In this document: one piece after another, positions 1 to 30,791 of the stretch
How the letters are laid out: every line of letters starts with the position of its first letter
Position numbering within the stretch: position 1 is the stretch's first letter
NCBI GenBank assembly: GCA_030649345.1
Contig: JAUSKK010000054.1
Coordinates: 1-32,000 of the forward strand
Reading direction: 5' to 3'
DNA: 32,000 bases
Origin: Candidatus Iainarchaeum sp.
GTDB lineage: Archaea > Iainarchaeota > Iainarchaeia > Iainarchaeales > 0-14-0-20-34-12
The notes under the pieces: model-generated
The model's input: only the letters and a program-made list of their open reading frames with translations
The model's database searches: none
Told to the model about the DNA's origin: nothing
Made by a program: the position numbers and the translations under genes

Positions 1-3000
1 GGTGTCACCATTAATGCATTGGTCTCTGGGCTCTTGTGTACATTGAATTCCTGTTTCTCCTGCACTAGTCATTAATCGTACTTTGACTTCATACGTGCCT
101 GCAGTTAAATCATTAAAATTAAAGTCTTTGCTGGAAGTGCTTACAACATTTCTGGTTTCTCTAATCGGTGATCCTGTTACTCCAACTCCGCTGCTGGTTA
201 CAGTTAATTCATAAGGTACTGCTGTTTCAATATCATTGTTGGATTTTAATTCAACTGTAATTTTTACATTATTGGTTCCAGTGATTGGAACTGCTTCTAC
301 TTTAGATACTGTTACATCTCTGGTGGTTGTAGATAATTCTTGAGTATTTCGTGAAGCTGTTCTTGAACTCGCTGGACAGCTGGCATTTCTTGTTGGTTGT
401 AATTCTTTTTCCAATAATTGAATTTTCTTTAATAATTCTATTGTGAATTGAGTTGAATCACAATAAATATTGTTTCTGTTTCCTTCATCGCATGAACCTA
501 AACCAATTCCAACTAATTGATTTCTAGCTTCTTCTATTGGATCAGGTATTGGAATTTCTACATTGGTTCCAGGAATTGTTGCAGTTCTAGTTGTTGAACC
601 AGTTACTAAAATGCTGTTCCATTTCCATGAATACAATACTTTAGGTGCTGCTTGGGTTCCTGTGCTTCCAATTCTGGATCCAATTCTGCAGCTTTCCAAT
701 CCCAAAGGAGTAGGCAAAGCTTCTTCTGGTTTGAATGAATTGAATTGGACTTTTATTTTTTCAAAATAAGATTGTTTGTCTTTAATTTTTTCTTGCAAGT
801 AAGCTTCTGTTATTTCTGTTTGAGTTGGATTGTCTTTACAGATTCCTGAACTAATTCCTTCAATTACATTATTTCCTGTTTCTTTGCTTTCTTCTGAAAT
901 ACTTTCACAATAAATATTTCGAATTTCTGTTCCTCCAACTTTTAAAATTCCTTTCAATGGAGTGAATGGATCCACTTGTTTTACATTGCCTGTATTTCTG
1001 AATTGGATTTCAAATTCATGCAATGGTTTTCTAAAGTCTGCTGGATTTGGTTTTTCTTTAGCTGTTCCAACTGCAATACTAATTCCATCAAAGGGCGGTT
1101 CGTCTATGAATCCAGTTGGATTATTGGTGTCTGGGATAGTTGCTAGTTCTGCTGCCAATAATTTAAAGTGTGCATTGCTGTCTAATTCTGGAATATCATT
1201 TACTATGACTGCTTTGGTTACTTCTCCTTCTCGGTCTGAAAATAAATAAGTTGTTGCTCCAGTAATTGCTCCTAAGCCAGCTCCAGCTAAAGGATTGGTT
1301 ATTCCGGCTCCAATTAATCCGCCTACGCCTCCCAACATGCTTCCAAATCCATTGCCTAATTGCTGTAAACCAAATCCTGAATTTTGTGCTCCCAATCCTT
1401 GGAAACCAGTTGGATTTTTTGACTGTAAATTAGCTAAAGTAACCAAACCTTGTCTGGCTCCAGTTGAAACTAAAGGTTCAGTTGCTGGGGCTGCTGTAGC
1501 TCCTGGAGTTTCTCCAACACATTTGTTGGCTGTACATACATTACTAGCACACCAAGTAGCATCTTGGCAGTCTTGGCCAGCTCCTAAGAAACAATAGAAT
1601 TTTGTGTCCGCAATTGCTGCTTGTGTGGCTCCTGCTCTTTTAGTATAATCTCCTTGTGGTGAAAAATTTATTTTTGAAATACATTTTAAATTAGCTGAAC
1701 TACTGGGATCACTACATTTTGCATTATCTGCTGAAATCCACCATATTCCACTTGTTTCATGGGGTGTATTTTGACATTCTGCTTGTAATTTTGCTGGTCG
1801 TGTAATCGTGCCAGGTGGACTTCCCCCAGTTGTTGCTATACAAACTCCGCTAGTACAAGTTGCTCCAGTTACACAAGTGTCTCCTGTGTTACAAACTGTG
1901 CCAATAGGTATATTTGTGCGTGCTGCTGGTCCGCCCCCTGGCAATCCTGTTCCTGGTAGTACTTCACAAAAAGAATCTCCTGCGAGTGGGTCGGAACATC
2001 TTCTGCCTGTAATTGATTCACATTCTTCTTCTATTTTGGTTGCAGTTCCAGTTGTTCCGCAAGTTTCAGTTATTAATTTTCCACCTGAACAATATTTTTT
2101 AGTTTGGCCGGCAGTAACTGTGCTCCCATTAATTTGACAGGTAAATTCTACTGAAGTAATTTCTGCACATTTATTTGTTGAAGAATCACAATAACTTGAA
2201 GCACATTCTGAATTATTTGTGCATGCTTCACCAGTTGCTTTTGGAGTTCCTGGCACTGCAATTGTTTTTTTACAAATATTACTTTCACAGGTTAAATCTT
2301 TTCCACAGTCTTCTTGTTTTGCACAAGCTTCTCCAAGTTTTTTAGTTCCTGCAGGTGGAGCTGTTGTTCCTTCTTTGACTTCTTGACATTTTCCGTCTTT
2401 CCATTCTGCGTTTTTGAATTTGTCACATTCTGCATCTGTGGTTGCAGCTGCAATAGCTGCTGCTCCGCCTAAAACTTTAGCTGTCTTGCTTCCGAATGAT
2501 CCAGCTAAGCCTGTCATTCCGCCAATTCCTGCACCTAAAGCCATGCGAGTACCCAAACAACTAGAGTCTGCTTCTCCGGATGCAATGCCTGCAATACTAG
2601 CTCCAGCTGAACCGCCGGCAATAATTCCTCCAGCAATCGCTACTCCGCCACCGACTCCAAAGCCGCCTAATAATCCTCCGACTAACATTCCTCCAGCCAT
2701 TCCGCCTAAAGAATTCCAGCCAAAGCCTCCACTTTCTTTATTACTCCAAAAACAAGAATTGTCGTAATGTACTTTGAATTGTTGTTCTTTTTTCACACAT
2801 TTATTAATGACTTTAGCTGTATCGAACGCGTCAAATGGTGTTGCTGGATCATCAAATACATCAAACTCGTATCTGGATAATTCAAAGCATTCATCGCCTG
2901 TGACTCTGACTCTTAATAATTTGCTTTCTCTGTAATCCAAAAATCCTGCCCCGCGAGCCAATACTGTAATTTGGTATTGTCCAGAAGTTTGACTCGGGTC

Positions 3001-6000
3001 TGTTAAAATTGTAAACATTTGTTTGTCTGTGCCTTGCAAGCTGGCTTGTTTTGTACTCAAATCTAATTCACTTTCAAATTTGAAGTCTACTGTTGCTCCG
3101 CAGTTTTTGGTTTCAATTTCAAAAGTAGTTTCTTCTCCTTTTTTGAGCTTAAAAAGATCTCTGTTGTATCGGATACAGTCTCCTAAACTGACTACTCCAA
3201 TTTGGGTTGTTAAAGAATCGCTTAATTCTTGTACACTGGCTGAAGTTGGATTTTCTGCTTTAATTTCAATAGTAGCTTCTCCTAAACCAGAGACTCCGCC
3301 GTCGGGTGTAAATGTTAATATTGCTTCAGTGCGCGAGTCTTCCAATACTCTGGGATTTACTAATTTGAAATAAGATTCGCGTAATTCAACTGTATCATTT
3401 CCAATGGTTAAAGAATAATTTCCTAATTTGTTTCCTTTCCAATGAACTTGAGCCTGCAAGTTCTTTAATTCAATTGGAATTCCTTCGATTGTACAATTAT
3501 TTTCAACTCTTAACTGCAAGCTTACTGGTTGTCCTTCTGTGGCTGCATCAGTCCAAGAATCTTTATCTACATTTAAGCATGCTGGATTTTCTACTTCTCC
3601 ACCAATTCCTATATTAATCAATACAGGTGTTTCTGTAATCCATTGTTCTCCTAAAGCACTTGCAATAATTACTAAATTTCCTTGCAAGTCTACGGGTGAA
3701 TTTAACTGTAATCCTAAATCGCTTAAGGCTAATCGTACATCAATATTCACTGAACTTTTTGCACTAATTTCTCGGCCAGTTAATTGACTAAAAATATATG
3801 CAATAGCCTTGGGTTGGTCAATTAATCCTTTTAAGTCTCCGCGTAAATCTACAGTATCAATGGTTACTCCAAATTCTGTTGCATTTCGTACATTGATAGT
3901 TCGAGTATTTTCTTTGATTGTTTTTGGATTCAAAGCATACCCCAATCTTTCCGGTGTAACTTTTACAACTGTAGTGTCTGCAGTTAAATCAACCACTAAA
4001 GGCTTGTAGTCTGGCTTTACTAAATAAAGTTGGATTGTTTCTCCGGGTCGAATGGCTGGCAATCGAATTCTAGCAATGCCCAATTCATTACTGGTTTCTG
4101 TAGTTGTAGCAATTATATTTCCGAATCTGTCTTTTACATAAACTTGTGTTCCTTGAACTTCTACACTGGTTCTTTTGTTTTTAATTTTCAAAACTAAAGT
4201 TTGTTCTACTCCTGTAGACAAAGTTGGCAAATCTTCGGAGAATGAAGAATTTTCTTTTTGGAATTCTATAGTAAATTCTTCTCTGGCCAAAACTTGTACA
4301 TTCAATACTTTACTGTATACAATTCTATTCGCTGATTTTAATTGCAAAGTTACTTGAGAAGTTGAAGGTTGTTCTGTGAGTAAATCAATTTCTCCAGTAA
4401 TTCTTGAATTTGGCTTTACATCTCCAACCAAGTCTGTAAAGTCGGAATCAATTCCATCAAATCCAGTTAAACCTCGAGCATGTGCTAATTCTCTTCCTGT
4501 AACATCGCGTACTTTGTATCCTAAAATACTCGAAGTTTCAGTGGGTTCAGCTATTCTGATTTGTGCTCCAAAAAAAGAATCTCTTTCACTTTCAGAAGTA
4601 TTCACTAAAGTAAATTTGAGTTTGTATTGTCTTCCAATATTTGCACTAAATCCATTGTTGGCTGAAACCATTAAATCCGATTCAGTGTCTAAAGCTGTAG
4701 CACTAAAGCACCAAATTCCAATACAAGTGCTTTCTTCTCCTGTACTGAATTGTTCTTCATTGGTGGCTGCTCGTAAATCTGCAAAGCTAGCTGTACTTGC
4801 AAAGCTTGCATCAGATGGCACTCGTACTAAACTTGTTCCTTCTTGAGCCCAAGCTCTCCAGTATAAAGATAATTGTTCATCCAATCCAGCAGTTTCTTTG
4901 ACTTTGAGTACCACATCTAAATTCATTAATCCAGTAAATGTTTGAGGATAAACAATATTCACCCATTTGCTTCCGTCTTTGCTTAAATTGCTTGAATCTT
5001 CCAACAATGCCAAAGCATCTGGTCTGTCATGCAAACTAGTTCCTTTCCATAAACTGGCTCCAGCTGGAACACTTACACTTTTCACAAACCATGGATCTGT
5101 TTCCATTTTTTCCCCTGGGCTAGTGCTGGCTGTAGGCACTCCAGTTCTTGCATGCAATCCAATTTGAGTGTAAATTTTATTGGATGGAATTCGTATTTGG
5201 AATCTTGCAGTATATTCTTCTCCAGGTGTAACATTTTGGACTCTGGTTCCATCTTTAAATAATCCAATAAATTTAGCTTGTAAGTCTCCGGAAATAATTT
5301 CTGGTTCTAATACAACAGTGTGTGTGCTTAATTCTGCTGGATTAATTTCAATCGGCTGAGAAATATATCTGGTATACGAAACACTTCTGCTGGGGTCATT
5401 AAAATTGCTTAAAATATAAACTTTGGTTCCGCCCGGAATAGTATCAAACAAAATACTTCCATTATTATCTGTTGGAGTAAATCCTTGAATAAGTTCATTC
5501 GAGTAAGAATCTCGTACACTGACTAAAGCAAAAGGTACTGCATGTCCGTCTTTATCTTGGACATTTACTTGCAAACTTCCATTCGGAATTTCTAAAACAA
5601 CAGTATAAACAATTTCTCCAGCTCTATTTTTTTGGAATTCTTGTACATCACTCCATCCGCTTGCTAAACCTTTGAATGCAAATACTTTATAGGTTCCATT
5701 ATCTACTGGAACAAATTTAGCAGCACCATTCACATCAGTAATTAATTTATCCGGACTTCTGGGTACAGCAAATCCTTGGCTGTCAAATAATCCAACCACT
5801 GCATTGGCAATTCCTTTTCCATCCGAATTTACTACTTTTAATTTTAAAGTTGCACATTCAGTTCCAATACATTGTTCTAAATTAATTCTTGTAACAGTTT
5901 CTCCGGGCGCGACATTAATAGGTCCTTTAGGTTTGTATCCATCCTTGGTTAAATAAACAGTAAATCCAGTTGTTTTGTCTACAGCAAATTCTGCAATTGC

Positions 6001-7140
6001 ATTATTGTCTAAACTTGTAGTTCTAAATTCTCTTTGATTGCTTCCATCAAATAATTTTACACTCACTCCTTCCAAAGCTCTGTTGCGTGTATCCAATGCT
6101 TGTATTTTAATTCGTCCAACTACATTTTTTTCCAATTCTAATTGAACAGTTTGAGTTCCGTTGGCAGTAATTTGTACAATATCACTGGTTTGACTGGAGT
6201 ATTCTCCTGTGCCATTGCTTTGCACACAATAAGTTCCTGCTGGAATATTAAACGAAACTTGTCCGGCTGTAGAATATTCTACACTTTCATACAATCCAGG
6301 GCAAGCAGCAAATCCATTGTCTGCTTTAAATAAATTTACAGAAATACTTTCAGTGGTTAAAGGTCTTTGCAGGCCAGCAGGATCTTGTGCTGTTAAATTT
6401 ACAATTAATGTTCCGGTGTTTGGAATATCTTCAGCCAATAAAATTTCTCCGCCGTCTGCAATCGGTTGTCCATCAACTCCCAAAAATCCAGCGACTGCAT
6501 TGACTGTTGCCCTTAGTTGTCCGCATTCTTCTGTTTTTTCTACTTCAAATCCATCAAAAGGCTGTATTTGATTGTAAATCGTTGCAGGAGCTGTATTAGA
6601 TCCAGAGCAAGAAAAAGTTACAGTTAAAGGAACTCCTGTTAATAATTGCCCGTTATTTTTTACATAAAATTTAATGGTTGTTCCAGTACTTTCTGGAATT
6701 AAAACAATTTCGCTTTGCAAAGATTGTTCTACAACTTCAATTCCTGCAATAGTATTGTATCCTGTTTTAGTTACTGCATAATTTACTGAAGTTCCTTTGG
6801 GTACTTGAATTTTTTCAGTAATTCCTTCAGCATTGGTAATTTTTGTAATTGGTTCAGTTAAACCATCGTACGAAAAAGTTACACTGGCTCCAGCAATAGG
6901 ACTGCCTTGGCTGACTGCTTTCAAACTATAGTCTACTGTATTTCCTGGTCCTAAAACTGAAGCAATTAAGAAGACTCCTAAAATAAGAATTAAAACTAAA
7001 AATACTGCAAAACTTGGAACAACTCTGTCAATGGGTTCAATGACTTTATAGATTGGGATGCGGGCATCAATTTTATCTAAAAAACCGTACCATTTTTCTT
7101 CCAACTTGAAATAAAACTCTTTTAAAGCTTCAAAAACCAT
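1..7140 (-). CDS. Giant membrane-anchored surface protein, paralog 1 (5'-complete; C-terminus runs off the left edge; 2380 codons in window)
   Basis: ATG at 7140-7138 with GAGGA 7 nt upstream. The track lists no terminated minus-strand ORF starting here, so the frame (codon first bases at multiples of 3) must stay open to nt 1. Hand translation gives MVFEALKEFYFKLEEKWYGFLDKIDARIPIYKVIEPIDRVVPSFAVFLVLILILGVFLIA..., the same N-terminal motif plus TM helix as the two complete giants. Hand-translated stretches at 5820-5641, 3540-3421, 2769-1261 and 471-441 are all in frame. They show a beta-sandwich repeat (GKGIANAVVGLFDSQGFAVPRSPDKLITDVNGAAKFVPVDNGTYKVFAFKGLASG) and paralog matches. The + strand ORFs at 563-6571 are antisense shadows. 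Confidence 0.85.
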   Translation of the reverse strand, partial: MVFEALKEFYFKLEEKWYGFLDKIDARIPIYKVIEPIDRVVPSFAVFLVLILILGVFLIASVLGPGNTVDYSLKAVSQGSPIAGASVTFSYDGLTEPITKITNAEGITEKIQVPKGTSVNYAVTKTGYNTIAGIEVVEQSLQSEIVLIPESTGTTIKFYVKNNGQLLTGVPLTVTFSCSGSNTAPATIYNQIQPFDGFEVEKTEECGQLRATVNAVAGFLGVDGQPIADGGEILLAEDIPNTGTLIVNLTAQDPAGLQRPLTTESISVNLFKADNGFAACPGLYESVEYSTAGQVSFNIPAGTYCVQSNGTGEYSSQTSDIVQITANGTQTVQLELEKNVVGRIKIQALDTRNRALEGVSVKLFDGSNQREFRTTSLDNNAIAEFAVDKTTGFTVYLTKDGYKPKGPINVAPGETVTRINLEQCIGTECATLKLKVVNSDGKGIANAVVGLFDSQGFAVPRSPDKLITDVNGAAKFVPVDNGTYKVFAFKGLASGWSDVQEFQKNRAGEIVYTVVLEIPNGSLQVNVQDKDGHAVPFALVSVRDSYSNELIQGFTPTDNNGSILFDTIPGGTKVYILSNFNDPSRSVSYTRYISQPIEINPAELSTHTVVLEPEIISGDLQAKFIGLFKDGTRVQNVTPGEEYTARFQIRIPSNKIYTQIGLHARTGVPTASTSPGEKMETDPWFVKSVSVPAGASLWKGTSLHDRPDALALLEDSSNLSKDGSKWVNIVYPQTFTGLMNLDVVLKVKETAGLDEQLSLYWRAWAQEGTSLVRVPSDASFASTASFADLRAATNEEQFSTGEESTCIGIWCFSATALDTESDLMVSANNGFSANIGRQYKLKFTLVNTSESERDSFFGAQIRIAEPTETSSILGYKVRDVTGRELAHARGLTGFDGIDSDFTDLVGDVKPNSRITGEIDLLTEQPSTSQVTLQLKSANRIVYSKVLNVQVLAREEFTIEFQKENSSFSEDLPTLSTGVEQTLVLKIKNKRTSVEVQGTQVYVKDRFGNIIATTTETSNELGIARIRLPAIRPGETIQLYLVKPDYKPLVVDLTADTTVVKVTPERLGYALNPKTIKENTRTINVRNATEFGVTIDTVDLRGDLKGLIDQPKAIAYIFSQLTGREISAKSSVNIDVRLALSDLGLQLNSPVDLQGNLVIIASALGEQWITETPVLINIGIGGEVENPACLNVDKDSWTDAATEGQPVSLQLRVENNCTIEGIPIELKNLQAQVHWKGNKLGNYSLTIGNDTVELRESYFKLVNPRVLEDSRTEAILTFTPDGGVSGLGEATIEIKAENPTSASVQELSDSLTTQIGVVSLGDCIRYNRDLFKLKKGEETTFEIETKNCGATVDFKFESELDLSTKQASLQGTDKQMFTILTDPSQTSGQYQITVLARGAGFLDYRESKLLRVRVTGDECFELSRYEFDVFDDPATPFDAFDTAKVINKCVKKEQQFKVHYDNSCFWSNKESGGFGWNSLGGMAGGMLVGGLLGGFGVGGGVAIAGGIIAGGSAGASIAGIASGEADSSCLGTRMALGAGIGGMTGLAGSFGSKTAKVLGGAAAIAAATTDAECDKFKNAEWKDGKCQEVKEGTTAPPAGTKKLGEACAKQEDCGKDLTCESNICKKTIAVPGTPKATGEACTNNSECASSYCDSSTNKCAEITSVEFTCQINGSTVTAGQTKKYCSGGKLITETCGTTGTATKIEEECESITGRRCSDPLAGDSFCEVLPGTGLPGGGPAARTNIPIGTVCNTGDTCVTGATCTSGVCIATTGGSPPGTITRPAKLQAECQNTPHETSGIWWISADNAKCSDPSSSANLKCISKINFSPQGDYTKRAGATQAAIADTKFYCFLGAGQDCQDATWCASNVCTANKCVGETPGATAAPATEPLVSTGARQGLVTLANLQSKNPTGFQGLGAQNSGFGLQQLGNGFGSMLGGVGGLIGAGITNPLAGAGLGAITGATTYLFSDREGEVTKAVIVNDIPELDSNAHFKLLAAELATIPDTNNPTGFIDEPPFDGISIAVGTAKEKPNPADFRKPLHEFEIQFRNTGNVKQVDPFTPLKGILKVGGTEIRNIYCESISEESKETGNNVIEGISSGICKDNPTQTEITEAYLQEKIKDKQSYFEKIKVQFNSFKPEEALPTPLGLESCRIGSRIGSTGTQAAPKVLYSWKWNSILVTGSTTRTATIPGTNVEIPIPDPIEEARNQLVGIGLGSCDEGNRNNIYCDSTQFTIELLKKIQLLEKELQPTRNASCPASSRTASRNTQELSTTTRDVTVSKVEAVPITGTNNVKITVELKSNNDIETAVPYELTVTSSGVGVTGSPIRETRNVVSTSSKDFNFNDLTAGTYEVKVRLMTSAGETGIQCTQEPRDQCINGDT

Positions 7141-7260: not shown

Positions 7261-7749
7261 TTATTTTGCTAAATTTAAGGTTATAATAGGCAAGCTGGGA
7301 ATTAAGAATTCTAAACCAATTGCCAATATTATTGCAACTAGTAAAATTAAACCAATTTTTTTAATTTGAGTTTCCAATCTGGTATTTTGCTTTAAATCTT
7401 GCTGAATCCAGTAACCCAATTGCATTCCAGCATAACACGCAATCAATAAAGGCAAGACCCGAATTAAATAAGTTAAATTTCCAGCAAAAGTATTTCCTTC
7501 ACTGATTCCAAAAACCAACAAAACTAAGGGTGCTAAATATCCTTGAAATAAACTGCTTAATCCAAATACTCCTAAAACCAACAACGCATTGTCCAAGAAA
7601 TTGAGTTGAGTGAGTTTGATTTGGAAATCAAATTGAATTAAGTTTGTGAATATGGCTAGTACTGCAATGGCATAAAACAATACTCCAATGAGCAAGTATA
7701 ATCGTGTGACCAAGCTTTGAGCTGTATTCTTTTCTTCAATTAAACTCAT
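7261..7749 (-). CDS. Small polytopic membrane protein, family not recognised
   Basis: 162-aa ORF in the track with 4-5 hydrophobic helices (LYLLIGVLFYAIAVLAIFTNL; ALLVLGVFGLSSLFQGYLAPLVLLVFGI; LIRVLPLLIACYAGMQLGYWI; IGLILLVAIILAIGLEFLI). An AAGCTTTAAATAAAAG box sits 17-32 nt upstream of the ATG and there is no SD, so the transcript may be leaderless. Confidence 0.75.
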   Translation of the reverse strand: MSLIEEKNTAQSLVTRLYLLIGVLFYAIAVLAIFTNLIQFDFQIKLTQLNFLDNALLVLGVFGLSSLFQGYLAPLVLLVFGISEGNTFAGNLTYLIRVLPLLIACYAGMQLGYWIQQDLKQNTRLETQIKKIGLILLVAIILAIGLEFLIPSLPIITLNLAK

Positions 7750-8523: not shown

Positions 8524-8540
8524 ATCAATCAACTCAGTAA

Positions 8541-8570
8541 GTATAATATGTTTAAACTTATTTAAATAGT
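8541..8570 (-). promoter_or_regulatory. Candidate mazEF promoter (TATA-like boxes)
   Basis: The minus strand reads ACTATTTAAATAAGTTTAAACATATTATAC, 18-47 nt upstream of ATG 8523. Assigned by position and A/T composition only. Confidence 0.3.
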
Positions 8571-8620
8571 TTTGCGTGTTATTGGAGTATCTGGATGTAC
8601 TCACTAGTTAAAAATTAAGA

Positions 8621-8680: not shown

Positions 8681-8697
8681 ATGCAGTTAAATTGTAG

Positions 8698-8747: not shown

Positions 8748-8759
8748 ATAGGTGGTTTT

Positions 8760-9472: not shown

Positions 9473-9533
9473 AAATAGAAATCCTTAGCTTTTTTAGTTG
9501 ACTAAGAATTTTTCTGCATTCCAGACAATTTCT
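9473..9533. repeat. Direct repeat copy B: the functional 3' end of giant 2 plus its hairpin
   Basis: Matches 8621-8680. It contains the last 13 codons (..TEIVWNAEKFLVN*) and the stop of giant 2. Confidence 0.8.
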
Positions 9534-18628: not shown

Positions 18629-18688
18629 TTAAACACCAAAGTTAACTTTGTAACTTTACTTTATAACTATAATATTTACCTTATTAGT

Positions 18689-18701: not shown

Positions 18702-18762
18702 CTCTTACTGGTTTTTGTGCATTTTTCTACTAATATATTAGTCTTCTTTATATTATATATTA

Positions 18763-20184: not shown

Positions 20185-20226
20185 TGCAGTGAATAGATTA
20201 AATGCTTTCGAGTTTATTTAAAAAAA

Positions 20227-24200: not shown

Positions 24201-27200
24201 ATATTCGGGTTGTCCAGCCAATGTTGCACTCGTAGATCCAAAGAATACGTCAGCTTGTTTTCTTTTTTCTGGATCATTTAATCCTTCTTCTTGTCTTCTG
24301 GCAACTACTTCGAGTAAAATATCATCTACACTTAATTCATCTGGGCCAGTCCAAGCTACATTCGGAATATAGTACGAGCCTACATCTAATTTGATTAATC
24401 TGGAAACCAAATCATACGGGCTTAGTCCACAGCTTTCTAATTTAATTAAAGCTTCATTGCTTTCTCTTGTTACTTTGTCTTTGGCTCTAGCTTTAACTTT
24501 CAATTGAGTGCTTAATGCATTTTTGATTTGAGTTACATCTCCTACTGCACATAATTTTACTGCAAAAGAATAATTGGTCAAATTTTTTGGATCTTGTTTT
24601 AATTGAATTACTGTTCCTTCAATTTTATTAGTTGGATCATCGGAGTATTCTTGAATAATTTCATCTTTTTTAATATCATTTAATCCAGGAATTCCTGTTT
24701 GTTCTTCGTTAGCTAATAAATAAACCGGTGTTTTTGCATTTGCTCGAATGACTTTTGTAATGTCTGCAAATCCTGCTGTGCTAATTTTTCCATTTTTGGC
24801 ATCTTCTACTAATTGAGCCCAATTGGTTTGCAGAATAATTCGTTCTCCAATGGTGCTGGATACATTCATATCCAAACAAGTTTCTGTAGAATACAAAGCC
24901 AAAGCTGCTTTAGGATCAGGCTGGCTGGGATTAACTTGAGGTCTGGCTGAAGTTGGCAAGTCTCTTAGTACTAATTCTGTTTTGTCTGCATTCATGCATC
25001 CATTGCCTTCCAATCCTCCTTTGGCTAAACTATCTATTCCTTTTCCAATTTCTGTGCCTAATTGTTTTTGGAATTCTGGATTGCTGGAAACATAAATGTC
25101 ATTAATAATGGCATCAATTTTGACTGGTTTTACATTGCCTTCAGCGTCTGTGACTTTTTCCATTTTTAATTTGATTACTCCAGAGCCTTCGACTGGCCCA
25201 ACTGTTAAATTCAAGTAATTATTGTTTCCGCTTTTTCCTGTTCTGCCTTCATTTTTTCCAAACAAGCTTTTTGCTAAACTACTTTTTAATTCTTCAAATT
25301 GTTTGGCATCTGTATTCGCTGGAGTGTCTCCTGCAACTGTTCCCAAAAAAGTATTGCTTCTTGTATTCAAAGTTAAGTCTTCGTCTTTGGGTAAAAAATT
25401 CATTACATTTTGTATTTGTTCAGTACATTCTGCAGTAATTTTTCGTTCATCTTGTAATTGGAAAGAAAATACCAATCCTTCGTCGCTGAATTTTCCGCCT
25501 ATATTTTGTACAGCTCCATCCAAGCTAATTCTGTATCTTCCACAGCCTGCTAAAATTCTAGGAACTCGAATTTGGTGGACTGAAAAACTGGAAGTAATTA
25601 ATTCTGCACTTTCTTCTATGGTGTTGACTGCATATCCTTTGATTTCTTTGAACTTGGTGCTGTCATCTAATATTTTTTTGACCAATTCACTGGTAACTAC
25701 ATCGTTTTGCAAGTATACTTCTAGGAAAGGAACACTAATTCCAAGAGAACTGAATGAACAAAATGTTTGGGTTGGATCACAACTTCCTGCATTGCGTGCA
25801 TCATAGCTTATTTCTCTTAATCTTCTGCGTACATCTCCTGCCAATCTGTTTATTTTTCCCAAAACATGCTGAGTCATTTGTTTGGCGTCACAATAATGAG
25901 CTGAACAATCGGCTTCATTTTGGGTTGCAATATCCGGCAATTTAATGCTTACTGTTGTTTTTTCGTCTCCGCAAATTGGCATTTCAAAACTAGCTGTAGC
26001 TTTTCCTTCTTCGCTTAATTCTTTTCCCAATAAAATAGTAGCCAATAACTTGTTGGATTTACTGAATTGCTGGCTGCGTACTAAAAATCCTTTGACACTA
26101 ATGGCTTCAGGTCTTTGTCCTGGACTAACATAGTCTGATTTTTTTCCTAAAGTTAATTTGTATTCTTGGCTTTCTCCTGGATTCAATACAGTACTTGCGC
26201 CTTCAAGTTTGAGTTCATTTTGTCCGAATAAAGTTCGGTCTAAAGTTAATTCTCTAACTTCTTCTGCACAATTGTTTTGGATTCTAATTTTTTTCTCCAA
26301 TACTCCGGCTGAACTAACTTCACTTTGGAATCGTAAAGGTTCTACTTCAAATACTTTCAGGCATTCTCCGCCGGAAATATAAACTTGTAAATCTACTGCA
26401 GTTAATTCAATTCTTCGGCCATTCACTGAACCCCAAATAATAATTCGTGCAGGAATTGTTTTTCCTTCCAAGGCTTTGGTAGCTGCAGTGCTTAAGTAAA
26501 TTGTTTTCGGAGGATTCAATTGTTGTCCTGGCATTAACATTCCTTGCCATAAACTTTTTTGGCTTCCGAAATAAGTAAAATTATTAGAGCCAAGCTGACT
26601 GAATGAATTGTTTGGATTTCCAAATTGGGTTTGTCCAAATCCTTGATTGTATCCTAAATTATATCCGCCAGTTGGACTGGAATTAAATCCTCCAAAGCCA
26701 GGCTGTTGGCTGAGTGCATACATTGGATTTTGCAAAGGATTATTGGGCACACCGTATTGGGGTGTATCGTAGGGCAATACTTCTGGTCTTTGATACAATG
26801 TTTGATTGTCATAACTTGGCTGTGTTCCTTGTGTTGATTGATATCCTGTAGCAAACAAGGCATTGCCTCCAGATTCTACTGGCAAAATATCAATGTCTAA
26901 ACTACCTGAAAATCCAGGTGCTAAAACTGTAGTGAATTGCAATGCATTGATTGGGAATTCTCCCACGTTTTTAATATACAAAGGCAAGTATCCTGTGGCT
27001 CTTTCTTGTAAATTTCCAGTAGTTTGGTTTTCTCCTTTGGCTAAAAATACTTGTCCATTATTTCCTGCAATAGCCTGCAATCCAAATTGCGGTGGAACTA
27101 CTCGGACAAATAAAGGAATACTGGCAGTCATTTGCGGAGAATTGAAAAATATTCTATACGGGTATTGTAAAATTCCTTGTCTTGGAATCCGGTTGGATAA

Positions 27201-30200
27201 ACTTAAGCTAATGCTTTTTTCTTCTCCAATTTGTAAACTCAAAGAAGGAGCTGTAATGGTTAATTGCTGGTCTTGTTCCAATCCTTCAATTCGGGTTGAA
27301 AAACTTAAAGCTTGCGAGCATTCATTTCGTACAATAATGTCTACTCTTGCACTGGTATTATCTAAGCCTAACAAGAAAGCTTGAGCTTGCGGTGTATTAA
27401 ACACCAAACAATCTTGGGGTAATTCTTTATTGTAATTTACTGTTACTCTTGTTCTGATTTCCACTGGGAAAACATCTTCAACTGTACCGCGAACAATTAC
27501 TTCAGCTTCGCCGTGCAGTCTTTCTTCTGGATTGGTTCCTTTAAATCGTGCATTCAAATTTAGTGAACCTGTTTCATTTTCGCTTAAAGCGCTTTGAATT
27601 TGTGCTTCAAGTACTAAATTTTCCGGCCAAAATTCAGATTCTTGTACTTCTACAGTTAAAGATTTAATTTTGAACGAACTTTTGTTTTGAATATTGATTC
27701 GTTTGCTTTCGGTTTTTTTATTGGGCTGTAAATCAAACAAAGTAGTTTCCTGTAAAGTTAAAACATCTGTTTTTCCAATGAAAATAGATTGTTCGATTTT
27801 TCTATAATTGGGTGCAGTAACTTCTACAATTAATACTCCAGCTGGCAGTCCTGCAGGAAAACCATATTCTCCGTTTCTTCCTTTTTTACCAGCATTATTT
27901 CCAATGACACTTCGTAAAGATTTTTTCTTTCCATCCAATATGCGTACAGTTGCATTGCTTACAAATTCACTGCTTTCTGAATCTTTGACTTGAATGGTAA
28001 ACGGCTGTCCAATCACAATTTTTTCAGGAACAATTTTGAGGTCCATTTCTTTTTCAGAATATACTGTAAAAAAGTGTGTTTTTTCTGTTTCTGTTTCTCC
28101 AACTTTGACTTTGATTTGCAGGAAAGTATTTTCTGCTTTTTTGGTTCTAAATGTTATGCGAATCTTTTTTTCTTCTCCTTGAGTTAATTGCAGTAAATCA
28201 ATGCGGTCTTCTACATCCAAAGAATCTTCCTGTGAAAATACATTGCTGAGTTGTCCAATTTGTCTTCCATTCAATCCAATTTTGGGGTTTTGTTTATCTG
28301 TGCTTACCGTAATAATAGGCCGGGCATTTTGGGTTGCTTTTAATGTTAATTCCAATGCATAAGTTCGATTCGTTAAAGGATTGAATTCATGTTCTAAAAA
28401 TTTGTTGCCTTGATCGTCTACAAATATGCTGGAAAAACAAACAGTGTTTACACATTCGGGTGTATCTTCAAATAATGGAATGGCTGCAAGTTTAGCTTCT
28501 GCATACAATGCACTTCTATGTTCATTCGAATTAGCTGTTTCCAAAACTGAGTCTAAAGGTTCTCTGAAAAATTCTCCATTGAGTGTACTCCAAGCTCTGT
28601 ATCTGACTGTAATCTCATTTTCTTGCAATGTTTCTCTGGCTCGAATTTTTAATCGTACAATTTCGACTGTATTGGGTTTGTCAAAATATAAATCCAGCCA
28701 TTTATTGTATGAATTTGCAGTTCCTTTATTGCTGCGGTCCAATCCTTCATTGCCGGGTTCAGGTGTAGCCATATAGGTTCTGCCATATGCAAAATTGCTG
28801 GCTGTGGAATCAAATCCTAAAATTCCTGAACTTTGAGAGTCTGCGAATTTTACAGAATCATCTCCGATTCTAAAATGAGCCCCTGAAGACAATTGAGTTG
28901 GACTAAATTCTAATTTGAATTTTAGCCAATAAAATTTTTCTTTCGAAATTCCTTCAACTATTTTTCCATGCTCGTCTTCAATTCCAATGAATTCAATTTT
29001 TGGGCTTAATCCTGCAGTGCTTTTGGATAAAGTAATATCTGCAGTTTTTCTTCCATTCATTTGAATTTCTTGAGAAAAAGTATTTCCATCCAAAAAAGTT
29101 GCCTGCAGTATAAAGTTTTCTTTGCCCAATCCATCAAAACTAACTTGGCCTAAATTACTAGGCCCAGTGTATAAAACTGTTCCATCTTTGGCTGTGATAA
29201 CCAAATTTCCGTCAATGATTTGTCCTGTTTCGTCTTTTAAATTTAAAGTAACCAAAGTCAAAGGCTTAATTAATTGAATTTTGATTTCATTTCTTTTTCC
29301 AGACTCAATACTTGTACTTCCTGTTCCTGCTTCAAAGTCTTTTCTGGCTTTGGCTTTAATTTGAGTATTCAATCGCACAGTAGCTTGCTGATATCCTGTT
29401 AAGTCTGTAACACTCGAAGGATAACCTGCAGGCCATTCTTTTCCATCTATAATTTCCAATAATTCAATGGTTGCATTATTGGCTGGTCTAAGCAATGAAT
29501 CCAATACAAAAATATTCAATAAAGTAGAATTTCGGCTATGCACTGGTTCTAAGTTTAAATTTACAGTTGGCTGATCTACTGGTTTGATTGTTTTATGTTC
29601 TGGTAAATATCCTGCTTTAAATCCTGTGACAATATATTCTGTGTTTTGATCCAAGCCTCGGAATTCTATTGTGCCAGATAAATCAGTTGTTTTTTCTTCC
29701 AGTAAAGTATTTTCCAATGAATAAATTTTTACAATTCCATCACTTAAAGGAACACTGCCTTGATCCAATAAATGTACTTCAATACTTTCTCCGCCTTGTT
29801 CTAAAAATGCTTCTACAATTTCTTGTTCTTGTCTTAATGTTCTGGCTGAAATTTCTGTACTAATGTATCCTAATTTTTCGACTGTAATTCGTACACTGGT
29901 TCCAGTATCCAATAATTCAGTATAACTTCCATCTTCGTCTTGGACTTCAGAAATTAAATCATTGGTTAAACCGTCAAAAATTTTTATTTTAACTGCAGTT
30001 AATTGCTGCTGTGTTTGTTTGTCTTTGGCTACAATTAATAATTGGGTTTTTCCTTGAAATGAAATAATGCTGGGCTTTAATTCAAATAAAGTAATTTGTT
30101 CGCTGTCAAATACAAATGGATCACTGCTTTGTTCATAGCCATTGGCTCGGGTAATTAAAAATCCCTGCAAGCCTACTGGAATTCCAGTAAATGAAAATAC

Positions 30201-30791
30201 ATTATCTGTTCCTAGAATTCCGTCAATTGTTTTTTCTGCAACTACAAACTGGGCTTGCACTTCACTGACTGGTAAACCGGATTCAGAGTCTACAAATTTA
30301 ATTTTTCCATCTACATAGCTTAAAATTTTATTCAAAGTTAAACGCAATGAAAGTTGTTCTGATTCTAAAACAATTTCTTGTTCTGTGCTTTCATATCCTT
30401 CTTTGCTGGCCCGCACTAAAAGTGTACTGCCAATTTTGAGTCCTTCCAAGGAAAGCGTTTGATTGGCGGAAACAATTTCTCGCTTGATTGAATTACCGGC
30501 TGCGTCCAAAATTTCTAAAGTGACTCCGCTAAGAGATTGATCAAAATTATCTTGTAAGCGTAAAGAAATTTCTGGATTAATGGATGTTCCCAAAGGAGAC
30601 AAAGAAAATACAGCAACAAAAATTAAAATAATTAAAGCCAAAGTTACAGGCAAACTCGGCAAGCCTTTGCTTTCCCAAAAATTATTGTATACATGAACTG
30701 GAATGCCGCGTGAATCCAAAGCTTCCAGCAAAGCATACCATTTGTCTTCAATGCCTGCATAAATTCTGCCTAAAATGTCAGAGATTCCCAT
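21294..30791 (-). CDS. Giant membrane-anchored surface protein, paralog 3 (about 3165 aa)
   Basis: Uninterrupted ORF in the track. I prefer ATG 30791 (MGISDILGRIYAGIEDKWYALLEALDSRGIPVHV...LPSLP plus TM TLALIILIFVAVFSL) to the track's GTG 30800, because giant 2 also starts MG... It has 6-7 beta-sandwich repeats, e.g. IEVHLLDQGSVPLSDGIVKIYSLENTLLEEKTTDLSGTIEFRGLDQNTEYIVTGFKAGYLP. It also has a Q/N/G/Y/F low-complexity tract, a Gly/Ala-rich hydrophobic hairpin, a long helical region and an SLT-like C-terminus. Confidence 0.92.
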   Translation of the reverse strand: MGISDILGRIYAGIEDKWYALLEALDSRGIPVHVYNNFWESKGLPSLPVTLALIILIFVAVFSLSPLGTSINPEISLRLQDNFDQSLSGVTLEILDAAGNSIKREIVSANQTLSLEGLKIGSTLLVRASKEGYESTEQEIVLESEQLSLRLTLNKILSYVDGKIKFVDSESGLPVSEVQAQFVVAEKTIDGILGTDNVFSFTGIPVGLQGFLITRANGYEQSSDPFVFDSEQITLFELKPSIISFQGKTQLLIVAKDKQTQQQLTAVKIKIFDGLTNDLISEVQDEDGSYTELLDTGTSVRITVEKLGYISTEISARTLRQEQEIVEAFLEQGGESIEVHLLDQGSVPLSDGIVKIYSLENTLLEEKTTDLSGTIEFRGLDQNTEYIVTGFKAGYLPEHKTIKPVDQPTVNLNLEPVHSRNSTLLNIFVLDSLLRPANNATIELLEIIDGKEWPAGYPSSVTDLTGYQQATVRLNTQIKAKARKDFEAGTGSTSIESGKRNEIKIQLIKPLTLVTLNLKDETGQIIDGNLVITAKDGTVLYTGPSNLGQVSFDGLGKENFILQATFLDGNTFSQEIQMNGRKTADITLSKSTAGLSPKIEFIGIEDEHGKIVEGISKEKFYWLKFKLEFSPTQLSSGAHFRIGDDSVKFADSQSSGILGFDSTASNFAYGRTYMATPEPGNEGLDRSNKGTANSYNKWLDLYFDKPNTVEIVRLKIRARETLQENEITVRYRAWSTLNGEFFREPLDSVLETANSNEHRSALYAEAKLAAIPLFEDTPECVNTVCFSSIFVDDQGNKFLEHEFNPLTNRTYALELTLKATQNARPIITVSTDKQNPKIGLNGRQIGQLSNVFSQEDSLDVEDRIDLLQLTQGEEKKIRITFRTKKAENTFLQIKVKVGETETEKTHFFTVYSEKEMDLKIVPEKIVIGQPFTIQVKDSESSEFVSNATVRILDGKKKSLRSVIGNNAGKKGRNGEYGFPAGLPAGVLIVEVTAPNYRKIEQSIFIGKTDVLTLQETTLFDLQPNKKTESKRINIQNKSSFKIKSLTVEVQESEFWPENLVLEAQIQSALSENETGSLNLNARFKGTNPEERLHGEAEVIVRGTVEDVFPVEIRTRVTVNYNKELPQDCLVFNTPQAQAFLLGLDNTSARVDIIVRNECSQALSFSTRIEGLEQDQQLTITAPSLSLQIGEEKSISLSLSNRIPRQGILQYPYRIFFNSPQMTASIPLFVRVVPPQFGLQAIAGNNGQVFLAKGENQTTGNLQERATGYLPLYIKNVGEFPINALQFTTVLAPGFSGSLDIDILPVESGGNALFATGYQSTQGTQPSYDNQTLYQRPEVLPYDTPQYGVPNNPLQNPMYALSQQPGFGGFNSSPTGGYNLGYNQGFGQTQFGNPNNSFSQLGSNNFTYFGSQKSLWQGMLMPGQQLNPPKTIYLSTAATKALEGKTIPARIIIWGSVNGRRIELTAVDLQVYISGGECLKVFEVEPLRFQSEVSSAGVLEKKIRIQNNCAEEVRELTLDRTLFGQNELKLEGASTVLNPGESQEYKLTLGKKSDYVSPGQRPEAISVKGFLVRSQQFSKSNKLLATILLGKELSEEGKATASFEMPICGDEKTTVSIKLPDIATQNEADCSAHYCDAKQMTQHVLGKINRLAGDVRRRLREISYDARNAGSCDPTQTFCSFSSLGISVPFLEVYLQNDVVTSELVKKILDDSTKFKEIKGYAVNTIEESAELITSSFSVHQIRVPRILAGCGRYRISLDGAVQNIGGKFSDEGLVFSFQLQDERKITAECTEQIQNVMNFLPKDEDLTLNTRSNTFLGTVAGDTPANTDAKQFEELKSSLAKSLFGKNEGRTGKSGNNNYLNLTVGPVEGSGVIKLKMEKVTDAEGNVKPVKIDAIINDIYVSSNPEFQKQLGTEIGKGIDSLAKGGLEGNGCMNADKTELVLRDLPTSARPQVNPSQPDPKAALALYSTETCLDMNVSSTIGERIILQTNWAQLVEDAKNGKISTAGFADITKVIRANAKTPVYLLANEEQTGIPGLNDIKKDEIIQEYSDDPTNKIEGTVIQLKQDPKNLTNYSFAVKLCAVGDVTQIKNALSTQLKVKARAKDKVTRESNEALIKLESCGLSPYDLVSRLIKLDVGSYYIPNVAWTGPDELSVDDILLEVVARRQEEGLNDPEKRKQADVFFGSTSATLAGQPEYYQEVRTAKKWALAGYTGTCAAVSIACNAISFRGGIGLGGLALSVAGDCGITAGSALFNMPGVDYSQTLKNLGDYVLPPYNLSQDITAYQNLPTPDPRQAVIDAANNNDTGIIGGRLEQALTSVTIGAFIGEYLQVSGKILTAGQVAEVTQLMTNNSIEAIGNRLYGAAPIPRPVNWGLIRNELHAILEHSIQERITALQRAKTIVTAQLLQTEFDAALTHAKADPALAQRFRTLYQEIGASNAALAPRYRAPGAGYAEELQKVEDAVIDARKGIRTQALTAAEAAAKSIGEKGIALEVTPAIGELLASGDAAAIAAQMGNPTVQTELTSIRHRIAESIWSSVEESGNLAGRIDDVTKTAFIANIEAELATPGVLTLNPGNLTVGDVIEKGSTSRTTQVGTKEVVKELEKRFTKEQLTETIERLAKESSHLTEKLEQASVDELKAIYDEIPGKLTITDTRSIGTGAPGRTRVINAILDNIHATNVQTRMEQTFGTNLLEELVEKSENQKLVKEVLQEVGSKETVNEIYHNFGTVTETRPNEVARKIHFKLDAVQIEQATKRALNLAPESPGNILLENAATTGRAKVKIGTAEINYSELANPAQREGEAAKQLLKDSEEFKAIIKEGIEGETVSFSRGRLARLGSVIRNMFTWEGAKGLGKGILCAGLANGAGNLAWDDLFKRNLTAGIGTQDFSGKDISDIDGDGKADVIPIPFGQILKNNCAHRVDISVGKAGDRKYIIQNLCNKPERPADIPEKNEIKAKCDASYLSEKPVIGNLRVPAPSENQGTDVFEFVGYQKYKSEIAKATEGKANVDDALIFAVMNVTTRIGFAQGDNKQLTGVDLIADYIGLCDTHDAVSVNNAEENIKCIAKRLNDWKALDQPYTDSSGINSPNFETALKNYYNGTSTGDYNGISARYLHKAIGTEKEFVSLVKQQYEKFSKFCIQNRAEVQIKALGISGLSTTKVKCKN

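What the first reader, a model, noticed from the sequence alone, without database searches (positions are those of the whole stretch)
1..30791. Cluster of three paralogous ~3000-aa single-pass-anchored surface proteins: candidate cell-cell attachment/penetration apparatus
Giants 1, 2 and 3 are co-oriented and share an N-terminal motif plus TM helix. They also share tandem beta-sandwich repeats of the carboxypeptidase-regulatory type. Their mid-regions match collinearly: giant 2 NLYAEAKVQVY vs giant 3 ALYAEAKLAAI, and giant 2 KIKNSCTVEGIPISLQNISAKIDWK vs giant 1 RVENNCTIEGIPIELKNLQAQVHWK (nt ~3430-3505). The distal parts differ in each paralog. Giant 1 has Gly-zipper segments plus Cys-rich repeats. 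Giant 2 has Cys-punctuated helices. Giant 3 has a hydrophobic hairpin, a helical region and an SLT-like end. So a common anchored stalk carries different distal modules. I recognised no S-layer signature, enzyme or secretion ATPase. Devoting about 80% of 32 kb to three such proteins is what one expects of a small-genome episymbiont that depends on host contact, and I do not recognise the family as a characterised one.
Basis: partly seen in the sequence, partly recalled or inferred. Interest (0 to 1): 0.85.

Follow-up and report, generated by a model that had tools for sequence, protein, structure and literature searches.

The report
Giant surface-fibril gene cluster, DPANN archaeon
The three huge membrane-anchored proteins are real paralogues. 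They are the first three giants of a conserved, uncharacterised gene cluster (four giants, a pilin-like protein, small membrane proteins) found across Iainarchaeota-type DPANN archaea. The cluster probably builds long cell-surface fibrils with a new kind of tip domain, but its function is untested.

Summary
Three co-oriented giant ORFs on the minus strand fill 80.5% of the window. They share a conserved N-terminal motif with one strong TM helix, and 6-7 collinear prealbumin/CarboxypepD_reg-like beta-sandwich domains. g1/g2 match at E 2e-68 and g2/g3 at E 1e-21.

Corrections:
- g1 is cut at the contig end (2380 aa).
- g1 and g2 do not end differently. They share a ~700-aa C-terminal "head" module found in the whole family, and g3 may carry a divergent copy mid-protein.
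- The "SLT-like end" of g3 has no support.

The giants are orthologues of fixed positions in a syntenic cluster: g3-type, type-IV-pilin-like protein, g2-type, 4-TM protein, g1-type, a fourth giant, then five small membrane proteins. This cluster occurs in Iainarchaeota/Diapherotrites and some Micrarchaeota-labelled MAGs (117 loci in GTDB genomes, none in viral contigs).

The head module has 328 representatives among 1.84 billion proteins. It has no Pfam or PDB match by sequence. A usable AlphaFold model (pLDDT 75) has no significant Foldseek match.

Best reading: N-anchored extracellular fibrils with a stalk, flexible linkers and a conserved head, used for cell or surface contact. The "penetration" and "episymbiont" ideas remain untested. 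An envelope-scaffold role is a serious rival.

The parts
1..7140 (-). g1: g1-type giant, 2380 aa seen. The C-terminal ~450 aa are missing because the contig ends here.
   Evidence: P0009 is identical and ends at the same residue. Orthologues are 2400-2870 aa with module B after module A.
6934..7140 (-). g1 N-terminal conserved cytoplasmic motif plus TM anchor (aa 1-69).
3976..6912 (-). g1 stalk: six detected prealbumin/CarboxypepD_reg-like beta-sandwich domains plus conserved unassigned regions (aa 77-1055).
2431..2736 (-). g1 Gly/Ala-rich hydrophobic 'glycine-zipper' segment (aa ~1469-1570). A second such segment lies at aa ~1905-1968 (nt 1237-1428).
   Evidence: Similar segments occur at the same relative place in several g1-type orthologues.
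1516..2427 (-). g1 Cys-rich repeats with a C-x5-6-C-x5-6-C-x4-5-C pattern (aa 1572-1875).
   Evidence: No Pfam hit.
1..690 (-). g1 module A of the conserved head (aa 2151-2380, motif IYCDSTQFTIELLKK), cut by the window edge.
   Evidence: HMM domain E 2e-30.
7264..7749 (-). 162-aa protein with four predicted TM helices, a conserved cluster member located just upstream of g1-type genes.
   Evidence: One search finds this family in 18 loci.
9497..18628 (-). g2: g2-type giant, 3044 aa, complete.
   Evidence: Orthologues are L002 gB and L005/L082 and others.
18401..18628 (-). g2 N-terminal motif plus TM anchor (aa 1-76).
15578..18415 (-). g2 beta-sandwich stalk (aa 72-1017).
14429..14731 (-). g2 Q/N/G/Y/P-rich low-complexity linker (aa ~1300-1400).
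   Evidence: Present at the same place in many g2-type orthologues and in g3.
11579..13003 (-). g2 lineage-specific helical insert with one Cys every ~35-50 aa (aa ~1876-2350).
   Evidence: Absent from the closest orthologues.
9497..11581 (-). g2 conserved C-terminal head. Module A covers aa ~2350-2490 (motif KFCDATQFTLSMTKK). Module B covers aa ~2650-3044.
   Evidence: AlphaFold model pLDDT 75.2, pTM 0.67. No Pfam, PDB or Foldseek match.
18766..20217 (-). Type-IV-pilin-like protein, ~484 aa. The N-terminus (M)NSKA-FNLFTALVGMILIVLTAVLV resembles a class III signal peptide. It probably starts at an ATA codon.
   Evidence: One search shows 14 homologues with the pattern [KR][GA]F[NT]LF[TS]ALV. 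The family is found in 19 loci.
21297..30791 (-). g3: g3-type giant, 3165 aa counted from MGIS, and the first gene of the cluster.
   Evidence: Orthologues occur in L002/L078, L051, L085 and L086, each followed by the pilin-like gene.
30573..30791 (-). g3 N-terminal motif plus TM anchor (aa 1-73).
27765..30569 (-). g3 beta-sandwich stalk with seven detected domains (aa ~75-1009).
26520..26777 (-). g3 Q/N/G/Y-rich low-complexity linker (aa ~1339-1424).
23967..26039 (-). g3 region conserved among g3-type orthologues (aa ~1585-2275). It is possibly a divergent copy of the head module (motif HYCDAKQMTQ at aa 1634). It ends in the conserved Cys hairpin motif Y.GTCA.VS...DCG at aa ~2205-2250.
   Evidence: hhalign against the head profile gives probability 43%, E 2.5e-4. 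HMM gives only E 0.006 at aa 1629-1657.
21297..23966 (-). g3 lineage-specific tail, helical with a Cys-containing end (aa ~2276-3165).
   Evidence: No homologue in any fetched locus. No Pfam hit. The AlphaFold single-sequence model was unusable.

Best explanation
The window holds the first three giants of a conserved gene cluster of Iainarchaeota-type DPANN archaea that builds a multi-component cell-surface apparatus.

Each giant is a type II membrane protein. It has these parts, in order:
- a conserved ~45-aa cytoplasmic N-terminal motif;
- one TM anchor;
- an extracellular stalk of about seven prealbumin-like beta-sandwich domains plus conserved unassigned regions (~1000-1300 aa);
- a paralogue-specific middle. 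This is a Q/N/G/Y-rich flexible linker in the g2 and g3 types, and glycine-zipper and Cys-rich repeats in the g1 type;
- a conserved ~700-aa head of unrecognised fold at the far end.

g3 adds a lineage-specific tail after its probable head.

Inferred mechanism: the stalks hold the heads tens of nanometres from the membrane, and the heads bind a partner cell or a surface. The pilin-like protein, the 4-TM protein and the five small membrane proteins would form or organise the membrane base.

What is shown: the architecture, the outside location of the head, the orthology and the synteny. What is inferred: binding or contact as the function, the length of the fibrils, and the roles of the accessory proteins.
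For: Architecture and paralogy.

Outside location of the head:
- There is only one strong TM helix, at the N-terminus.
- In the split form of the system, the head is a separate ORF with its own Sec-type signal peptide.

Conserved head:
- It is found in 89 proteins of the fetched loci.
- It is found in 328 of 1.84 billion representative proteins.
- The AlphaFold model is usable, with pLDDT 75.2 and pTM 0.67.

Fixed gene order with one-to-one orthologues at ~30% identity:
- L002 has g3-type, 469-aa pilin-like, g2-type.
- L085 and L086 have the same order.
- L082 has pilin-like, g2, 165 aa, g1, a fourth giant, then five small ORFs, by independent gene calls.
- About 20 further loci show the same order.
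- The accessory families recur: pilin-like in 19 loci and 4-TM in 18.

Distribution and investment:
- 117 loci in GTDB genomes are almost all from Iainarchaeota or Diapherotrites.
- None are found in viral contigs.
- Several loci occur per genome. For example, one 853-kb contig carries L004 and L019.

Paralogue-specific low-complexity segments are conserved by position.

Some relatives fuse the head module to hydrolases, which fits action on something outside the cell:
- Beta-lactamase-like;
- CN_hydrolase;
- Peptidase_M64;
- a weak SLT match.
Against: - No adhesive or ligand-binding domain is recognised. The head matches nothing in Pfam or PDB. Foldseek best E is 0.076 against PDB and 0.027 against BFVD. 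Binding is therefore an inference from architecture only.
- No expression, localisation or imaging data exist for any member.
- The phylum's lifestyle is unknown, and it has been suggested to be free-living (PMC8407392). A host-contact role is therefore not required.
- Strict conservation of paralogue identity and gene order looks more like a housekeeping structure than a variable adhesin repertoire.
- N-glycosylation sequons are not enriched.
- No assembly ATPase or prepilin peptidase lies in the loci.
Confidence: 0.55

Rival explanations
1. Envelope scaffold. The giants are the structural cell envelope of these archaea, a long-stalked S-layer-like canopy. The stalks act as spacers and the conserved heads pack laterally. 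On this view the cluster is housekeeping, not a contact device.
For: - The cluster is present across the phylum with a fixed gene order. Each paralogue is retained as an orthologue.
- The head is conserved rather than hypervariable.
- The co-encoded small membrane proteins could serve as anchors.
- The investment is large.
- From my own knowledge: long-stalk S-layers exist, such as Staphylothermus tetrabrachion.
Against: - No S-layer Pfam domain is found.
- The known Micrarchaeota S-layer protein is a 101-kDa PF05123 protein of a different family (10.1101/2021.04.28.441871).
- Four different 250-350-kDa subunits would be an unusually costly lattice.
- Sequences diverge fast. The nearest relatives are 35-37% identical.
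- Glycosylation sequons are not enriched.
Confidence: 0.25
2. Contact-dependent attack or feeding device. The fibrils deliver membrane-active segments or lytic modules to a neighbouring cell to open it or to form a bridge. The candidate segments are the g1 glycine zippers, the g3 hairpin and the g3 tail.
For: - Glycine-zipper-like hydrophobic segments sit in an extracellular protein and recur in g1-type orthologues.
- The tail after the conserved g3 hairpin differs between lineages, as in polymorphic effectors.
- Relatives fuse the head to Beta-lactamase-like, CN_hydrolase, M64 protease and weak SLT domains.
- Large lytic transglycosylases have been proposed as predation tools in other DPANN (PMC9723730).
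Against: - No toxin, pore-forming or lytic domain is detected in g1, g2, g3 or in the orthologue tails.
- No immunity-like gene follows g3. The next conserved gene is the pilin-like one.
- The g3 'hairpin' is only mildly hydrophobic (Kyte-Doolittle ~1.3) and is a conserved Cys motif, not a TM pair.
- The enzyme fusions are few. One of them, P0021, sits at a contig end.
Confidence: 0.12
3. Mobile-element or viral cargo, or an assembly artefact.
For: The window contains MazEF, a DUF3368 PIN-like gene and a Bro-N gene among the giants.
Against: - These small genes are insertions that are absent from the same positions in other loci.
- The giants sit next to housekeeping genes elsewhere, for example the Hel308 helicase.
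- No relative is found in 2.9 million viral contigs.
- An independent Logan contig carries g2 identically.
- GC content is even across the window.
Confidence: 0.02

Closest known systems
Fibrillar adhesins of bacteria (membrane- or wall-anchored proteins with a stalk of repeated Ig-like domains such as SpaA/Cna-B, SdrD-B and Big, plus a tip adhesive domain)
   Same: An anchor at one end, a long stalk of prealbumin/Ig-like beta-sandwich repeats (Pfam CarboxypepD_reg, SpaA, SdrD_B), and a non-repeat domain at the far end.
   Different: - The anchor is an N-terminal TM helix preceded by a conserved cytoplasmic motif, not LPXTG or an outer-membrane anchor.
- The tip is a ~700-aa module with no known adhesive domain.
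- The proteins come as four fixed paralogues in an operon-like cluster with pilin-like and small membrane proteins.
- The organism is archaeal.
Giant surface proteins of other DPANN and ultrasmall prokaryotes (the Nanohaloarchaeota SPEARE proteins, from my own knowledge; Omnitrophota and CPR giant genes, bioRxiv 10.1101/2023.11.21.568195; large lytic transglycosylases of Woesearchaeota, PMC9723730)
   Same: Very large predicted extracellular proteins in a small genome, proposed to mediate contact with other cells.
   Different: - No protease, nuclease, SLT or other enzymatic domain is found in g1-g3.
- There is no sequence relationship.
- Here the defining parts are the N-terminal motif and the conserved head, both restricted to Iainarchaeota-type genomes.
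Archaeal S-layer systems with stalks (Sulfolobales SlaA/SlaB and Staphylothermus tetrabrachion, from my own knowledge; Micrarchaeota SLP, bioRxiv 10.1101/2021.04.28.441871)
   Same: A membrane-anchored stalk that holds a distal domain away from the membrane, encoded by conserved chromosomal genes.
   Different: - No S_layer_N or S_layer_C domain.
- The subunits are 2-3 times larger.
- There are four paralogues instead of one or two.
Thermococcales gene module centred on a hypervariable Ig-domain protein (PMC8416519)
   Same: A large archaeal Ig-domain protein with co-located accessory genes of unknown function, discussed in the context of cell-cell recognition or conflict.
   Different: It occurs in a different phylum and has no detected homology. 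In that module the downstream genes vary between loci. Here the order and content are fixed.
Archaeal type IV pilin-like proteins (class III signal peptide proteins)
   Same: The 473-aa neighbour begins with a short polar leader, then [KR][GA]-F-[NT]-L-F-[TS]-A-L-V and a hydrophobic helix.
   Different: It is 360-650 aa long, far larger than the pilins I know of. No Pfam pilin family matches it. No pilus ATPase, platform protein or prepilin peptidase lies in the cluster.

Membership tests
Fibrillar adhesin (architectural class) | Stalk of tandem repeated Ig-like or beta-sandwich domains | tested here: met
   Pfam CarboxypepD_reg E 4e-35 (g2), 1e-14 (g1) and 1e-15 (g3). There are 6-7 collinear domains per protein.
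Fibrillar adhesin (architectural class) | Cell-surface anchor | tested here: met
   One strong N-terminal hydrophobic segment. Head-only relatives carry Sec signal peptides, so the C-terminal part lies outside the cell. The anchor type is unusual.
Fibrillar adhesin (architectural class) | Recognised adhesive or ligand-binding tip domain | tested here: not met
   The head has no Pfam or PDB sequence hit. Foldseek finds no significant match; the weak hits are generic lectin- or fimbrial-type beta-sandwiches at E>=0.076.
Archaeal S-layer proteins (PF05123/PF05124 type) | S_layer_N or S_layer_C domain | tested here: not met
   No such hit in g1-g3 or in 66 head sequences.
Archaeal S-layer proteins (functional class) | Forms a regular lattice and is among the most abundant proteins | not testable with these tools
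   Needs proteomics or cryo-ET.
Lytic transglycosylase (SLT/GH23), claimed for the g3 end | SLT domain with a catalytic Glu-Ser motif | tested here: not met
   No Pfam hit at E<=1 in g3 aa 2765-3165. The corresponding stretch reads MNVTT, with no Glu. No BLAST similarity to the SLT-like part of P0005.
Lytic transglycosylase (SLT/GH23), claimed for the g3 end | Lysozyme-like fold | tested here: inconclusive
   The single-sequence AlphaFold model has pLDDT 34.
Type IV pilin-like (class III signal peptide), for the 473-aa protein | Short leader, [KR][GA] cleavage motif, then a hydrophobic N-terminal helix | tested here: met
   The pattern is conserved in the 14 homologues inspected.
Type IV pilin-like (class III signal peptide), for the 473-aa protein | Processing by a prepilin peptidase and assembly by a pilus ATPase and platform | tested here: inconclusive
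   None of these genes lies in the fetched loci. The rest of the genomes was not examined.
Polymorphic toxin / contact-dependent inhibition | Variable C-terminal toxin domain followed by an immunity gene | tested here: not met
   The g3-type tails vary but have no Pfam toxin domain. The next conserved gene is the pilin-like one.
SPEARE proteins of Nanohaloarchaeota | Serine protease plus adhesion plus restriction endonuclease domains | tested here: not met
   No protease or nuclease Pfam hits.

The most novel reading that the evidence does not exclude
The cluster encodes a previously undescribed archaeal cell-contact machine. Its base would be made of a pilin-like protein and six small membrane proteins. 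Four giant fibrils would rise from it. Their conserved heads would dock on a partner cell. Their paralogue-specific hydrophobic segments (the g1 glycine zippers and the g3 Cys hairpin and tail) would then insert into the partner's membrane. That would create the pores or cytoplasmic bridges through which DPANN cells are thought to obtain lipids and metabolites.
Probability: 0.1. Interest if true: 0.9.

Novelty: new variant of a known kind. Interest (0 to 1): 0.6.

Why it matters
Iainarchaeota (Diapherotrites) have no cultured member, and their lifestyle, free-living or host-dependent, is unresolved. These genomes are about 1.2 Mb (AR10). The main cluster holds four giants, and some genomes carry further loci (e.g. 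L004 and L019 on one contig), so this family takes up several percent of the coding capacity, in a fixed gene order. The cluster is thus probably central to how these cells meet their surroundings.

The work defines concrete targets:
- a family-specific N-terminal anchor motif;
- a ~700-aa head domain with no known relative, for which there is now a usable model;
- a pilin-like partner;
- a set of small membrane proteins.

These can be looked for in metaproteomes and in cryo-tomograms, and they can be expressed for binding tests. If the heads bind other cells, that would be direct molecular evidence for symbiosis in this phylum. If they form a lattice, that would be a new type of archaeal envelope.

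Tried and rejected
- A full-length g2 query in the word-indexed protein search timed out.
- The same tool gave 4 hits for the N-terminal 1300 aa. It gave only 1 hit for the head, even with a 66-sequence profile. Family size was therefore taken from the exhaustive representative search and the GTDB scan.
It was rebuilt from representative-search proteins.
- Single-sequence AlphaFold of the g3 end was useless.
- PDB sequence searches of all parts of the giants found nothing. NCBIfam found nothing meaningful.
- The attempt to cut a clean alignment of the 590-1300 region failed, because the repeated domains cross-match.
- N-glycosylation sequon counts are no higher than in shuffled sequences.
- There are no DNA tandem repeats and no tRNA or Rfam features.
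- The viral-contig scan was negative.
- I considered and rejected these readings, for the reasons given in the membership table:
  - an S-layer family;
  - SPEARE-like proteins;
  - a polymorphic toxin system;
  - an SLT domain at the g3 end;
  - phage or mobile-element cargo.
- The weak Foldseek hits to class II viral fusion proteins and HAP2 have probability 0.01-0.04 and are not evidence.
Full report
**What is in the window**

All long open frames lie on the minus strand.
- g1 is 1-7140. It is 2380 aa and open at base 1.
- g2 is 9497-18628, 3044 aa.
- g3 is 21297-30791, 3165 aa counted from MGIS.

Together they take 25,770 of 32,000 nt, which is 80.5%. GC content is even at 32-38%. There are no tRNA or Rfam features and no DNA tandem repeats.

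The smaller genes between the giants are these:
- a 162-aa protein with four predicted TM helices (7264-7749);
- a MazF/MazE pair (7928-8604);
- a DUF3368 PIN-like gene (8923-9453, plus strand);
- a ~480-aa ORF (18766-20217);
- a Bro-N gene split by an in-frame TAA (20314-21174).

An independent Logan assembly (SRR13727527) carries g2 identically. The database copy of g1 ends at the same residue as the window. The window therefore starts at a contig end, and g1 is truncated.

**Check of the observation**

The shared N-terminus is real. The motif Y..LE(E/D)K(Y/W)Y.(F/L)L(D/E).(L/I)D...IP(V/I)(Y/H)...(I/V/L)PS(F/L) is followed by the only strongly hydrophobic segment of each protein.

Pfam sees CarboxypepD_reg, SpaA and SdrD_B-type domains only in the first ~1000 aa. 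An iterated search places 6-7 such domains at collinear positions in all three giants.

Pairwise BLASTP gives g1~g2 E 2e-68 over aa 5-1324, g2~g3 E 1e-21 over aa 1-776, and g1~g3 E 2e-8. The paralogy is therefore far beyond chance, and it is not confined to generic Ig repeats.

1. The distal ends are not all different.
   - An iterated search over homologues fetched from genomes shows that the whole family shares a C-terminal region of ~700 aa.
   - Module A has the motif C..(Y/F)CDATQF(T/S)..L.KK.
   - Module B has the motifs PFDG.VG...G.R.GYG and VC...F.WN.
   - g2 carries the region at aa ~2350-3044. g1 carries module A at aa 2151-2380 and loses the rest to the contig end.
   - What differs between paralogues is the middle. 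g1 has glycine-zipper and Cys-rich repeats. g2 has a Q/N/G/Y-rich linker and a 470-aa helical insert that its closest orthologues lack.
   - g3 has the same kind of linker. It then has a region conserved among g3-type orthologues (aa ~1418-2270).
   - A profile-profile comparison aligns part of that region (aa ~1585-2275) to the head module at only 43% probability. I treat this as unproven.
   - The last ~900 aa of g3 match nothing in any fetched locus and nothing in Pfam.

2. The unit is a larger, syntenic cluster. A scan of one genome per GTDB species with the N-terminal alignment found 117 confirmed loci. Almost all are labelled Iainarchaeum, Diapherotrites or "archaeon", including the complete AR10 genome and Ca. 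Iainarchaeum andersonii. Gene maps show a fixed order:
   - g3-type giant;
   - pilin-like protein;
   - g2-type giant;
   - ~160-aa 4-TM protein;
   - g1-type giant;
   - a fourth giant;
   - five small multi-TM proteins (~75-140 aa).

   Each window giant has its own orthologue at ~30% identity in distant genomes, for example in L002, L085 and L082. The paralogues are therefore old, and each is kept. The toxin-antitoxin and Bro-N genes of the window are local insertions.

3. The ~480-aa ORF is a type-IV-pilin-like protein. Its homologues start with M..[KR][GA]-F[NT]LF[TS]ALV plus a hydrophobic helix. In the window the only possible start before this conserved leader is an ATA codon, 8-9 nt after GGAGG.

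4. A second locus type, next to the Hel308 helicase, encodes the system in three pieces:
   - an anchored stalk;
   - a small type I membrane protein;
   - a head with its own Sec signal peptide.

   This shows that the head works outside the cell and can be a separate subunit.

**How far the family reaches and whether it is known**

- The exhaustive search of 1.84 billion representative proteins with the head profile gave 328 hits at E<=1e-3 and 102 at E<=1e-10. Most are 2300-2700 aa with the head at the C-terminus.
- Source names are "hypothetical protein" or "carboxypeptidase regulatory-like domain-containing protein" from Candidatus Diapherotrites/Iainarchaeum.
- The nearest relatives of g1 and g2 are only 35-37% identical.
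- No relative occurs in IMG/VR viral contigs.
- The head has no Pfam hit in 66 members and no PDB sequence hit. No other part of the giants has a PDB sequence relative.
- An AlphaFold model of the g2 head, built on 53 diverse sequences, is usable (pLDDT 75.2, pTM 0.67). It has a helical N-terminal part carrying the CDATQF motif and beta-rich domains after it.
- Foldseek finds nothing significant in PDB (best E 0.076) or BFVD (best E 0.027). AlphaFold DB was not available, and the model could not be searched domain by domain. "No known fold" is therefore not proven.
- Full-text searches found no description of this family.
- The known Micrarchaeota S-layer protein is a different, 101-kDa PF05123 protein (10.1101/2021.04.28.441871).

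**Mechanism**

Shown:
- an N-terminal anchor;
- an extracellular stalk and head;
- fixed paralogues;
- fixed accessory genes.

Inferred: the giants are long surface fibrils. Seven beta-sandwich domains at roughly 4 nm each, plus ~600 aa of further conserved stalk, suggest at least 40 nm; this is my own estimate. The conserved heads would contact something outside the cell. The low-complexity segments would act as flexible spacers. The pilin-like and small membrane proteins would organise the base.

A few relatives join the head to hydrolase domains: Beta-lactamase-like, CN_hydrolase, Peptidase_M64 and a weak SLT. This hints that the module is used to bring activities to an external target.

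I put this contact-fibril reading at about 0.55.

**Rivals**

- An envelope scaffold (0.25). It is favoured by the strict conservation across the phylum.
- A contact-dependent attack device (0.12). It is favoured by the glycine zippers and the variable g3 tails, but no toxin, pore or lytic domain supports it.
- Mobile-element cargo or an artefact (0.02). It is effectively excluded.

Diapherotrites have even been suggested to be free-living (PMC8407392).

**Verdict**

The finding is a real and well-delimited feature. It is a phylum-wide, uncharacterised cluster of giant anchored surface proteins with a new conserved head module.

It belongs to a known general kind, the giant Ig-repeat surface proteins of ultrasmall prokaryotes. 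Within that kind it is a new variant, with its own anchor motif, head, partners and gene order.

Interest is moderate to high. The function is open, but the parts are now defined well enough to test.

Noticed in passing
window 20314-21174 (- strand), stop at 20785-20787: A Bro-N (KilA-N-like) gene is split into 129-aa and 157-aa ORFs by a single in-frame TAA. An intact 287-aa homologue (55% and 72% identical to the two parts) lies in L018 8681-9541. This is probably a recent pseudogene, or a sequencing or recoding issue.
   Followed up: partly
window 20190-20226 (- strand): The pilin-like gene has no ATG, GTG or TTG upstream of its conserved class-III-like leader. The first codon after the upstream stop is ATA, 8-9 nt downstream of GGAGG. 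Standard ORF callers start 11 codons too late and lose the signal peptide.
   Followed up: partly
window 7928-9453: Two toxin-antitoxin-type modules are inserted between g2 and the 4-TM gene. One is MazF (7928-8260) with MazE (8248-8604). The other is a DUF3368 PIN-like gene (8923-9453, + strand) with a small RHH ORF next to it in the L001 gene calls. They are absent from this position in other loci.
   Followed up: partly
L019, L022, L032, L054, L056, L060-L063 (around 10000-19000): This is a second locus type, beside a Hel308-type helicase. The stalk (with the N-terminal motif), a 170-590-aa type I membrane protein and the head (with its own signal peptide) are three separate, tightly abutting ORFs.
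   Followed up: partly
P0021 (L083 88-5163), P0045, P0077, P0065, P0005 (L084 5737-9645): Some relatives of the head module are fused to Beta-lactamase-like (E 2e-20), CN_hydrolase (E 4e-7), Peptidase_M64 (E 1e-6) or weak SLT (E 0.005) domains. P0005 also has an HEARH motif. P0021 starts at a contig end and may be incomplete.
   Followed up: partly
L006 17150-18923; L059 16974-18660; L079 16704-18110; L082 27422-29060; L003 22735-24757: Five small multi-TM proteins of ~75-140 aa, with no Pfam match, always follow the last giant of the cluster. This holds even in a GC-rich distant relative (L003).
   Followed up: partly
It is only mildly hydrophobic. The sequence after it differs completely between lineages.
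   Followed up: yes
window 30988-31581 (+) and 31589-31999 (-): Two ORFs of 198 aa and at least 137 aa lie upstream of g3. They have no Pfam hit and no homologue in any fetched locus.
   Followed up: no
L034 and L081 (record titles): Two family loci come from a MAG labelled Candidatus Falkowbacteria (AB_1215_Bin_116), and one (L066) comes from a 'Thaumarchaeota' MAG. These are probably mis-binned or mislabelled contigs rather than true occurrences outside DPANN.
   Followed up: no
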